From Tequatrovirus NIC06P2: DNA of 64,000 nt. The DNA is taken from sequence record OZ035760.1; one strand, given 5' to 3'. The position numbers and the translations under genes were made by a program. Of this stretch, positions 35,436 to 36,102 are shown piece by piece. The notes below the pieces were generated by a model. It was not told the DNA's origin, made no database searches, and saw only the letters and a list, made by a program, of their open reading frames with translations. The first letter of the stretch is position 1. Each line of letters begins with the position of its first letter.

Positions 35436-35653
35436 GTCACCTTTAAGCAGTATTCTTCTACATGCTGTTTACGACCTTTCTTATCAATAAAGGTATATTC
35501 AACGAATGTTCCAATGTAGTCTTTATCTACATCATGTGGACTATTAATTGGACATTTAGTACGGCAAATGCGTTCCCATTGACGAATAATTACTGCCTTA
35601 TTCTTTGGGTCATATGGATGTGGATAATGTATATTCATAATAATGGTTCCCAA
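35426..35653 (-). CDS. hypothetical protein
   Basis: 75 aa ORF. Confidence 0.45.
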   Translation of the reverse strand: MGTIIMNIHYPHPYDPKNKAVIIRQWERICRTKCPINSPHDVDKDYIGTFVEYTFIDKKGRKQHVEEYCLKVTWL

Positions 35654-36102
35654 TCAACAATCACAATTTCTAATTTAGAGGAATATGTATCTAAAATCCC
35701 CTCAATAATATCCCAGTTTCCTTTACCTATGCCTGCACCAATCCTAGGCATATAGATTGTAGGTTTAATCAGTTTATTTTCACCAAACTCATTTAATTCT
35801 AACATACAATTCATTAAAGCGGAATATTCAAAATTTGGCCCTGGTTGAAATTGAGTATAAAGATTAAAGCAGTAAGCTTTATGAGTCCTAAAGTATTTTT
35901 CATAGACTGAGTAAGAACCAAGTTTAGTTACATCACCCCATTCAGTCTGTAATTTATCAGCTTCCAAAATTTTAGGGAAAGCTTTGGTTAATTGACCTGC
36001 GACTCCAGCTTTCATCGTATGAAAACAATTGCATCCATGCGCAATATTTTTACCTTCAGTGAAAAGGGCGACAATATCGCCCTTGATATATTTTACAATC
36101 AT
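35635..36102 (-). CDS. macro-domain-like protein (putative ADP-ribose binding/processing)
   Basis: KGDIV...IAHGCNCF...KAGVAGQL and IGAGIGKG align to macro-domain signature blocks. Confidence 0.55.
   Translation of the reverse strand: MIVKYIKGDIVALFTEGKNIAHGCNCFHTMKAGVAGQLTKAFPKILEADKLQTEWGDVTKLGSYSVYEKYFRTHKAYCFNLYTQFQPGPNFEYSALMNCMLELNEFGENKLIKPTIYMPRIGAGIGKGNWDIIEGILDTYSSKLEIVIVDWEPLL

What the first reader, a model, noticed from the sequence alone, without database searches (positions are those of the whole stretch)
35635..36102. Macro-domain-like protein in the tk-regB interval
The 155-aa protein aligns by eye to the macro-domain signature blocks (KGDIV...IAHGCNCF...KAGVAGQL and IGAGIGKG). 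Macro domains bind or hydrolyse ADP-ribose derivatives, so a phage copy could reverse protein or DNA ADP-ribosylation or degrade ADP-ribose-derived immune signals.
Basis: partly seen in the sequence, partly recalled or inferred. Interest (0 to 1): 0.55.

Follow-up and report, generated by a model that had tools for sequence, protein, structure and literature searches.

The report
T4 Tk.4/AdfM macrodomain, anti-DarTG2 factor

Summary
The 155-aa ORF at 35635..36102 (minus strand) is real and is a genuine macrodomain. Pfam Macro scores above its gathering cut-off. The AlphaFold2 model has pLDDT 95, and its Foldseek top hits are TARG1, Poa1p, BT1257, DarG and SCO6735. The window is a Tequatrovirus, and the protein is 152/155 identical to T4 Tk.4 in the same tk.3–tk.4–vs position.

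The domain has been annotated since at least 2006 as "A1pp phosphatase motif". A November 2025 preprint (HIDEN-SEQ) showed that deleting tk.4 sensitises T4 to DarTG2 and renamed the gene adfM.

My one addition concerns the active site. All 183 retrieved homologues carry Gln84 where DarG (K80), TARG1 (K84) and PhiKZ "AdfM" gp104 carry the catalytic Lys. The His22/Asn25/Gln84/Gly124 set matches SCO6735 (H24/N27/Q85/G128). SCO6735 is a stand-alone macrodomain experimentally shown to cleave thymidine-linked ADP-ribose from DNA.

T4-type AdfM is therefore best read as a Gln-type, SCO6735/BT1257-like hydrolase, not an orphan DarG. It is a different lineage from PhiKZ AdfM despite the shared name. 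Its enzymology has not been tested.

The parts
35635..36102 (-). tk.4 / adfM coding sequence: 155 aa plus stop, a single macrodomain with no extra domain
   Evidence: ORF. 152/155 identity to T4 Tk.4. Same position between tk.3 and vs as in T4. Pfam Macro. AF2 pLDDT 95.
35998..36039 (-). Residues 22-35, HGCNCFHTMKAGVA: the His22/Asn25 active-site strand end plus ADP-ribose-binding loop 1. K31/A32 here versus G31/S32 in T4.
   Evidence: H22 is conserved in 178/183, N25 in 182/183, and G33 and A35 in 183/183 homologues. These residues align to SCO6735 H24, N27 and G35, to DarG N22 and to PhiKZ gp104 N23.
35851..35865 (-). Residues 80-84, NLYTQ: the motif carrying Gln84 at the position of the catalytic Lys of DarG (K80) and TARG1 (K84), and of SCO6735 Gln85
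   Evidence: Q84 is 183/183, Y82 183/183, N80 182/183 and T83 179/183. Register confirmed by HMMER against TARG1 and BT1257 and by hhalign against DarG, SCO6735 and TARG1.
35713..35748 (-). Residues 119-130, PRIGAGIGKGNW: the Gly-rich diphosphate-binding loop 2. G124 aligns with SCO6735 G128, and G126 occupies the TARG1 Asp125 position.
   Evidence: P119 is 182/183, G122 180/183, G124 181/183 and W130 179/183. Alignments.
36099..36102 (-). ATGA overlap of the vs stop codon with the tk.4 start codon (translational coupling)
   Evidence: Minus-strand sequence ...ACTAGATGATTG. The same 4-nt overlap appears in the T4 coordinates.
35635..35638 (-). ATGA overlap of the tk.4 stop codon with the tk.3 start codon
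   Evidence: Minus-strand sequence ...TTATTATGAATATACAT. T4 tk.3 and tk.4 overlap by 4 nt.

Best explanation
The ORF is the orthologue of phage T4 tk.4 (adfM), a stand-alone ALC1/TARG1-class macrodomain. It is made from the regB-vs-tk gene string. Its role is to protect replicating phage DNA from the host DarTG2 toxin-antitoxin defence.

DarT2 ADP-ribosylates thymidines in single-stranded TNTC motifs and so blocks phage DNA replication. The macrodomain binds the ADP-ribose moiety through its two Gly-rich loops and hydrolyses the ribose-thymine N-glycosidic bond, restoring unmodified DNA.

Its active site is of the SCO6735 type, not the DarG type. Gln84, held by Asn25, positions the distal ribose, and a water molecule rather than a lysine carries out the chemistry.

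Shown by others: the loss-of-function phenotype in T4, and the dT-ADPr hydrolase activity and Gln/Asn dependence of SCO6735. Shown here: orthology, fold, and conservation of the residues. Inferred: that this protein itself is a dT-ADPr hydrolase using that mechanism.
For: Orthology: 98% identity to T4 Tk.4 and identical synteny; the window is 98.8% identical to Tequatrovirus genomes.

Genetics in T4: tk.4 was the single significant HIDEN-SEQ hit on DarTG2, and a clean knockout is sensitised. T4 lacking adfA and adfN stays DarTG2-resistant, so another factor was expected.

Fold: pLDDT 95. The top structural matches are all ALC1-like macrodomains, including DarG and SCO6735.

Active site: hhalign to SCO6735 gives 98.7% probability and E=4.7e-16, mapping H22/N25/Q84/G124 onto H24/N27/Q85/G128. 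These residues are 97-100% conserved in 183 homologues. In SCO6735, Q85A and N27S abolish cleavage of dT-ADPr DNA, G128E reduces it, and the enzyme has a higher turnover than DarG. BT1257, the best PDB sequence hit, is a close SCO6735 orthologue (E=1e-53).

Precedent: a different phage macrodomain, PhiKZ gp104, removes DarT2-made ADPr from DNA in vitro.
Against: No biochemical assay of T4 Tk.4 or of this allele exists in the literature I could search; the preprint itself only says enzymatic removal 'seems likely'. The genetic evidence is from a preprint and from T4, not from this phage. The window allele differs in ADPr-binding loop 1 (K31/A32 against G31/S32).

The DarG/TARG1 catalytic Lys is absent. 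ALC1, a non-catalytic ADPr binder, also has Gln at that position, so Gln alone does not prove catalysis.

SCO6735 Lys34 and Lys89, which help bind DNA, are not conserved (A32 at the K34 position). Identity to SCO6735 and BT1257 is only about 21-27%.
Confidence: 0.8

Rival explanations
1. Non-catalytic protection. The macrodomain binds ADP-ribosylated DNA or DarT2 itself and blocks the toxin by sequestration or inhibition rather than by hydrolysis.
For: The catalytic Lys of DarG and TARG1 is missing. ALC1's Gln-bearing macrodomain is a binder. Catalytically dead SCO6735 Q85A still inhibited DarT in vitro, more strongly than DarG K80A or TARG1 K84A.
Against: The SCO6735 catalytic set H/N/Q/G is 97-100% conserved, whereas ALC1 lacks the Asn (Asp in HCVDD). 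The protein has no DarT-binding C-terminal domain (155 aa; DarG model matched only at positions 2-146 of 338). A stoichiometric binder would be a weak answer to an enzyme toxin.
Confidence: 0.1
2. Housekeeping small-molecule enzyme, either an ADP-ribose-1''-phosphate phosphatase (the historical 'A1pp phosphatase' annotation) or an O-acetyl-ADP-ribose deacetylase, unrelated to defence.
For: PHROG 335 is named 'phosphatase'. T4 RefSeq says 'phosphatase, A1pp motif'. JGI names for homologues say OAADPr deacetylase. Poa1p is among the top structural and sequence hits and shares the H-x-C-N-C motif.
Against: These names are transferred from domain matches, not from tests. The only phenotype found for tk.4 is DarTG2-specific. 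Poa1p has Ser, not Gln, at the position aligned to Q84 (alignment).
Confidence: 0.04
3. Eraser for other ADP-ribose marks or signals. Candidates are the modifications made by the phage's own Alt/ModA/ModB transferases, RNA base ADP-ribosylation, or Thoeris-type ADPr-derived second messengers.
For: Macrodomains act on many 1''-linked ADPr conjugates. SCO6735 and TARG1 also reverse uracil-ADPr on RNA and Glu/Asp-linked protein ADPr.
Against: There is no genetic or biochemical evidence. T4 remains sensitive to the mRNA ADP-ribosyltransferase system CmdTAC, so adenine-ADPr on RNA is evidently not reversed. Thoeris is not mentioned in the T4 screen. These would most likely be additional activities rather than alternatives.
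Confidence: 0.05

Closest known systems
T4 Tk.4 = AdfM (anti-DarT factor Macrodomain; bioRxiv 10.1101/2025.11.20.689424)
   Same: 98% identical (152/155), the same length, and the same position between tk.3 and vs with the same ATGA overlaps.
   Different: Three substitutions (T15A, K31G, A32S relative to T4). Two of them lie in ADP-ribose-binding loop 1. The K31/A32 allele is common among Tequatroviruses.
SCO6735 (Streptomyces coelicolor) and its orthologue BT1257 (Bacteroides thetaiotaomicron): stand-alone Gln-type ALC1-like macrodomains; SCO6735 cleaves dT-ADPr DNA
   Same: A single-domain protein of about 150-180 aa. Gln replaces the catalytic Lys, and the His/Asn/Gln/Gly set is conserved (H22/N25/Q84/G124 against H24/N27/Q85/G128). 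This pair gives the best PDB sequence hit and the best hhalign score.
   Different: Only about 21-27% identity. The motif is NLYTQ instead of NMIGQ. SCO6735 Lys34 and Lys89 are not conserved, and its long mobile loop is not evident. The family here is phage-borne rather than chromosomal.
DarG antitoxin macrodomain (M. tuberculosis 5m3i, T. aquaticus 5m31/5m3e)
   Same: Homologous fold (hhalign 98%, E=4e-14; Foldseek TM 0.76). The Asn (N22 against N25) and the Thr preceding the catalytic position are conserved. It counters the same toxin, DarT2.
   Different: Gln84 instead of catalytic Lys80. There is no C-terminal DarT-binding domain and no adjacent darT gene. The NCBIfam DarG score is 24 bits against a cut-off of 250.
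PhiKZ gp104, also named AdfM (Cell Rep 2026, PMC13309987)
   Same: A phage-encoded single macrodomain that counters DarTG2. The active-site Asn is conserved (N23 against N25).
   Different: gp104 is a DarG-type Lys enzyme (FPTK motif; 35% identical to Mtb DarG, E=3e-31). It is only marginally similar to the Tk.4 family (hhalign E=2.7e-9; BLASTP E=0.017 over 23 aa). The two are independent acquisitions that share a name.
Human TARG1/OARD1
   Same: The top structural match (Foldseek E=7e-10, TM 0.75-0.82), and known to cleave dT-ADPr and U-ADPr.
   Different: TARG1's Lys84/Asp125 dyad is replaced by Gln84/Gly126.

Membership tests
Macro domain superfamily (Pfam PF01661) | Sequence match to the family HMM above the curated gathering score | tested here: met
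   25 bits against a cut-off of 22, E=1.9e-5, covering profile positions 2-113 of 118.
Macro domain superfamily (Pfam PF01661) | Three-layer alpha/beta/alpha macro fold superposable on solved macrodomains | tested here: met
   AF2 pLDDT 95 and pTM 0.90. Foldseek probability 1.00 and TM 0.7-0.8 to TARG1, Poa1p, BT1257, DarG and SCO6735; 143 PDB hits with E<=0.001.
Macro domain superfamily (Pfam PF01661) | Two Gly-rich ADP-ribose-binding loops in the canonical positions | tested here: met
   HTMKAGVA and PRIGAGIGKGNW align column for column with the TARG1, BT1257, DarG and SCO6735 loops. G33, G122 and G124 are 98-100% conserved.
Macro domain superfamily (Pfam PF01661) | Binds ADP-ribose | not testable with these tools
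   Requires ITC, DSF or a co-crystal structure.
T4 Tk.4/AdfM orthologous group | High identity and conserved position between tk.3 and vs in a Tequatrovirus genome | tested here: met
   152/155 identity. The gene order tk-tk.1-tk.2-tk.3-tk.4-vs-vs.1-regB is identical to T4.
T4 Tk.4/AdfM orthologous group | Loss of the gene sensitises the phage to DarTG2 | not testable with these tools
   Reported for T4 only, not for this phage or allele.
DarG antitoxin (NCBIfam NF048014, equivalog) | Full-length match above the curated cut-off (macrodomain plus C-terminal DarT-binding domain) | tested here: not met
   24.3 bits against a cut-off of 250. Only model positions 2-146 of 338 are matched, and the protein is 155 aa.
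DarG antitoxin (NCBIfam NF048014, equivalog) | Catalytic lysine (K80 in the FPTK motif) | tested here: not met
   Gln84 aligns to K80. Gln is present in 183/183 homologues.
DarG antitoxin (NCBIfam NF048014, equivalog) | Encoded next to a darT toxin gene | tested here: not met
   The neighbours are vs and tk.3.
Gln-type ALC1-like dT-ADPr hydrolases (SCO6735/BT1257 type) | Gln at the TARG1-K84/DarG-K80 position, held by a conserved Asn; conserved His and PB-loop Gly | tested here: met
   H22/N25/Q84/G124 align to H24/N27/Q85/G128. Conservation is 178, 182, 183 and 181 of 183. The functional importance of these residues in SCO6735 is documented.
Gln-type ALC1-like dT-ADPr hydrolases (SCO6735/BT1257 type) | DNA-positioning lysines (SCO6735 K34, K89) | tested here: not met
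   The position aligned to K34 is A32 (S32 in T4; A or S in 169/183 homologues). The window has a Lys one residue earlier, K31. The K89 equivalent is not conserved in the alignment.
Gln-type ALC1-like dT-ADPr hydrolases (SCO6735/BT1257 type) | Hydrolyses thymidine-linked ADP-ribose on ssDNA | not testable with these tools
   Requires an in vitro assay on DarT2-modified oligonucleotides.
Poa1p-type ADP-ribose-1''-phosphate phosphatase (source of the 'phosphatase' annotation) | Close sequence and structure relationship and shared active-site residues | tested here: inconclusive
   Foldseek TM 0.8. The H-x-C-N-C motif is shared, but Poa1p has Ser at the position aligned to Q84, and its sequence match covers mainly the N-terminal 98 residues. 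Activity was not tested.

The most novel reading that the evidence does not exclude
T4-type AdfM is not a captured DarG antitoxin. It is an independently recruited Gln-type macrodomain, like SCO6735 and BT1257, that uses a lysine-free, water-mediated mechanism. On this reading, phages have acquired anti-DarT2 macrodomains at least twice from different clades: T4-like phages took the Gln type and PhiKZ-like phages the Lys type. Like SCO6735, it might have high turnover and a broader substrate range, such as uracil-ADPr on RNA and Glu/Asp-ADPr on proteins. If so, it would also protect against ADP-ribosylating defences other than DarTG2.
Probability: 0.5. Interest if true: 0.35.

Novelty: already known. 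Interest (0 to 1): 0.18.

Why it matters
DarTG systems are widespread anti-phage defences. Knowing which phage genes neutralise them explains host range and matters for choosing therapeutic phages. For this gene the main point has already been made: the domain has been annotated since 2003-2006 and the anti-DarTG2 phenotype was reported in 2025.

What remains open is the enzymology. The family lacks the DarG/TARG1 lysine and has the SCO6735-type Asn/Gln site. T4 AdfM would therefore be a convenient, highly expressed, genetically tractable model for the poorly understood lysine-independent mechanism of thymine-ADPr hydrolysis. Two evolutionarily separate phage proteins also now share the name AdfM, which is worth flagging to annotators.

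Tried and rejected
(1) The profile search of the 5.8-billion-protein collection was meant to reach named DarG proteins. It returned more than 5,600 hits, but the 120 listed were all Tk.4-like, so it gave no DarG sequences. I obtained the DarG and SCO6735 sequences instead from PDB alignments, using bait queries.

I rebuilt the alignment without that row.

(3) The promoter and terminator scan of 34000-39500 found no more sites than in shuffled sequence (19 against 22.5 expected). It therefore says little about expression. Only the site upstream of regB (37503..37475, minus strand) looks plausible.

(4) I checked whether a homologue labelled 'Bacilli bacterium' might be a bacterial toxin-antitoxin context. 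It is a T4-like phage contig, so it gives no evidence for a cognate toxin partner.

(5) I considered filing the protein as an 'orphan DarG' and rejected that: the catalytic Lys, the C-terminal domain and the NCBIfam cut-off all fail.

(6) I considered the Thoeris and CmdTAC readings. Neither has support.

(7) I did not use the 1.84-billion-representative search, the viral or metagenome locus scans, or the second structure job, because the answer did not depend on them.

Full report
**Observation.** Its translation contains every quoted block: KGDIV, IAHGCNCF, KAGVAGQL and IGAGIGKG. It lies between thymidine kinase (34476..35057) and regB (36986..37447). Its immediate neighbours are tk.3 and vs, which it overlaps by ATGA at both ends. 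That arrangement is typical of translationally coupled T4 early/middle genes.

**Identity of the window.** A 2.5-kb segment around the ORF is 98-99% identical to many Tequatrovirus genomes, including F26, JK38 and G8; 659 records matched. Gene order is the same as in T4: tk, tk.1, tk.2, tk.3, tk.4, vs, vs.1, regB. The protein is 152/155 identical to T4 Tk.4, differing at T15A, K31G and A32S. It is therefore the tk.4 orthologue.

**Is it a macrodomain?** Yes, on four independent lines of evidence.
- Pfam Macro (PF01661) scores 25 bits against a gathering score of 22.
- phmmer against PDB sequences finds only macrodomains: BT1257, Poa1p, TARG1/OARD1, SCO6735 and DarG. A 51-sequence family profile raises these to E=1e-18 to 6e-11.
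- AlphaFold2 with that alignment gives mean pLDDT 95 and pTM 0.90.
- Foldseek against the PDB returns TARG1, Poa1p, BT1257, DarG and SCO6735 at probability 1.00 and TM 0.7-0.8. The MacroD/Af1521/viral classes fall clearly lower.

The two Gly-rich loops align with the ADP-ribose-binding loops of the solved proteins. The protein belongs to the ALC1-like (TARG1/DarG/Poa1p/SCO6735) class.

**What is already known.**
- T4's RefSeq record calls Tk.4 'phosphatase; contains A1pp phosphatase motif'.
- A 2006 comparative paper reported the A1pp (macro) match for tk.4 orthologues (PMC1524935).
- Several GenBank records call it 'macro domain-containing protein' or 'high-affinity ADP-ribose binding module protein'.
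- The HIDEN-SEQ preprint (10.1101/2025.11.20.689424) found tk.4 as the single significant transposon hit on a DarTG2 host. It showed that a clean knockout sensitises T4 and renamed the gene adfM. It noted the structural similarity to M. tuberculosis DarG and stated that enzymatic removal of ADP-ribose from DNA 'seems likely'.

No enzymology of Tk.4 was found in the searchable literature.

**What the sequence adds: the active site.** The catalytic lysine of DarG (K80, motif NFPTK) and of TARG1 (K84) aligns to Gln84 of the window protein (motif NLYTQ). The evidence:
- The DarG macrodomain sequences were verified against PDB chains 5m3i and 5m31.
- hhalign gives 98% probability and E=4e-14 to Mtb DarG, in the register N80/N76, T83/T79, Q84/K80.
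- The HMMER profile alignment and hhalign to TARG1 agree, and they place Gly126 at the TARG1 Asp125 position.

In a MAFFT alignment of all 183 homologues retrieved, Gln84 is invariant. Tyr82, Asn80, Asn25 and His22 are 97-100% conserved.

SCO6735 of Streptomyces coelicolor is the experimentally characterised precedent. It lacks the Lys/Asp residues and has Gln85 at the equivalent position. It cleaves thymidine-linked ADP-ribose from DNA with a higher turnover than DarG or TARG1. It is inactivated by Q85A/E and N27S, weakened by G128E, and protects cells from DarT (PMC9411070).

I recovered the SCO6735 sequence from PDB 5e3b. That search also showed that BT1257, the window protein's best PDB sequence hit, is a close SCO6735 orthologue (E=1e-53). 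hhalign of the Tk.4 family against SCO6735 is the best of all comparisons (98.7%, E=4.7e-16). It maps H22/N25/Q84/G124 onto H24/N27/Q85/G128. SCO6735's DNA-positioning Lys34 aligns to Ala32, so it is not conserved. The window allele has a Lys one residue earlier (K31), which is a common Tequatrovirus variant but rare across the family.

**Two different 'AdfM' proteins.** A 2026 Cell Reports paper gives the name AdfM to PhiKZ gp104. That paper shows in vitro removal of DarT2-installed ADP-ribose, weakened by N23A (PMC13309987).

I translated the printed gene.
- gp104 has the DarG-type FPTK motif and is 35% identical to Mtb DarG (E=3e-31).
- It is barely similar to the window protein (BLASTP E=0.017 over 23 residues).
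- It is the weakest profile match of all the references (hhalign E=2.7e-9).

T4-type and PhiKZ-type AdfM are therefore distinct lineages of the ALC1-like class, Gln-type and Lys-type respectively. They were apparently recruited independently against the same toxin.

**Membership.** The protein is a member of the macrodomain superfamily and of the Tk.4/AdfM orthologous group. It is not a DarG:
- the NCBIfam DarG score is 24 bits against a cut-off of 250;
- only the macro half of the model is matched;
- there is no C-terminal DarT-binding domain;
- there is no catalytic Lys;
- there is no adjacent darT gene.

It works like a DarG macrodomain but is chemically closer to SCO6735. The 'phosphatase' label (PHROG 335, RefSeq) is a historical transfer from the A1pp domain name, not a tested function.

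**Mechanism, with status of each step.**
- DarT2 modifies thymidine in TNTC motifs of ssDNA and blocks replication. This is established in the literature.
- Tk.4 is needed for T4 to grow on DarTG2 hosts. This is shown in T4, in a preprint.
- The window protein is its orthologue, with an intact SCO6735-like site. This is shown here.
- It hydrolyses the ribose-thymine bond with Gln84/Asn25 positioning the distal ribose and an activated water. This is inferred by homology.

**Rivals.**
- Non-catalytic sequestration or DarT inhibition. Dead SCO6735 still inhibits DarT, and ALC1 has Gln and only binds. The near-invariant Asn/Gln/His/Gly set argues against this.
- A small-molecule Appr1p or OAADPr enzyme.
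- Erasing other ADPr marks or signals. SCO6735 and TARG1 also act on U-ADPr RNA. T4 is nevertheless sensitive to CmdTAC, and Thoeris was not examined.

**Context checks.** A relative labelled as from a Bacilli MAG is in fact on a T4-like phage contig, next to Rnl1 and a Dda-like helicase. The close family therefore looks phage-borne. The family is very large, with more than 5,600 hits at E<=0.001. The promoter and terminator scan was uninformative overall.

**Verdict.** The residual value has three parts. The T4-type AdfM family has a lysine-free, SCO6735-like active site. It is a different lineage from PhiKZ AdfM. Its biochemistry is still untested.

Noticed in passing
window 35426-35638 (tk.2/tk.3 junction); L001 3427-3803: Very close relatives such as Shigella phage JK38 carry about 370 bp with two extra small ORFs (57 and 68 aa) between tk.2 and tk.3. 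The window, T4 and phage F26 lack them, which is why many megablast hits came in two pieces.
   Followed up: partly
window 36007-36012 (codons 31-32 of tk.4): The window allele has K31/A32 in ADP-ribose-binding loop 1 where T4 has G31/S32. The K31 allele is common in Tequatroviruses (a 122-member cluster, and JK38) but rare family-wide (6/183). DarG K29, SCO6735 K34 and the BT1257 Lys align to the neighbouring position 32. This could tune DNA binding or DarT2-variant specificity.
   Followed up: partly
L003 1-8397 (GCA_051648945.1 contig JBOFGC010000414, labelled 'Bacilli bacterium'): This MAG contig is a T4-like phage fragment with the order DUF4326, Rnl1 RNA ligase, unknown ORF, Tk.4-like macrodomain, Dda-like helicase, spanin, PNKP, dCMP deaminase. 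The macro gene here sits among RNA-repair genes rather than next to tk and vs.
   Followed up: no
window 37475-37503 (-): A promoter-like site (TTTACT, 17-nt spacer with TG, TATAAT) lies just upstream of the regB start at 37447. It could drive the regB-vs.1-vs-tk.4 string. The overall number of promoter-like sites in the region is not above shuffled expectation.
   Followed up: no
window 36099-36440 (-): The vs gene (valyl-tRNA synthetase modifier) encodes 113 aa here against 115 aa in T4. The HIDEN-SEQ preprint reports vs as the gene most strongly depleted in minimal medium.
   Followed up: no
L001 (MK962755.1) 4807-5352, 7009-7874: The JK38 GenBank record labels vs.1 (an SLT transglycosylase-like protein) and several vs.x ORFs as 'endoribonuclease RegB'. 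This is evidently a propagated annotation error (compared with T4).
   Followed up: no
literature: PMC13309987 versus bioRxiv 10.1101/2025.11.20.689424: The name AdfM has been given independently to two phage macrodomains of different lineages. PhiKZ gp104 is Lys-type and 35% identical to Mtb DarG. T4 Tk.4 is Gln-type and SCO6735/BT1257-like. This is a nomenclature collision.
   Followed up: yes
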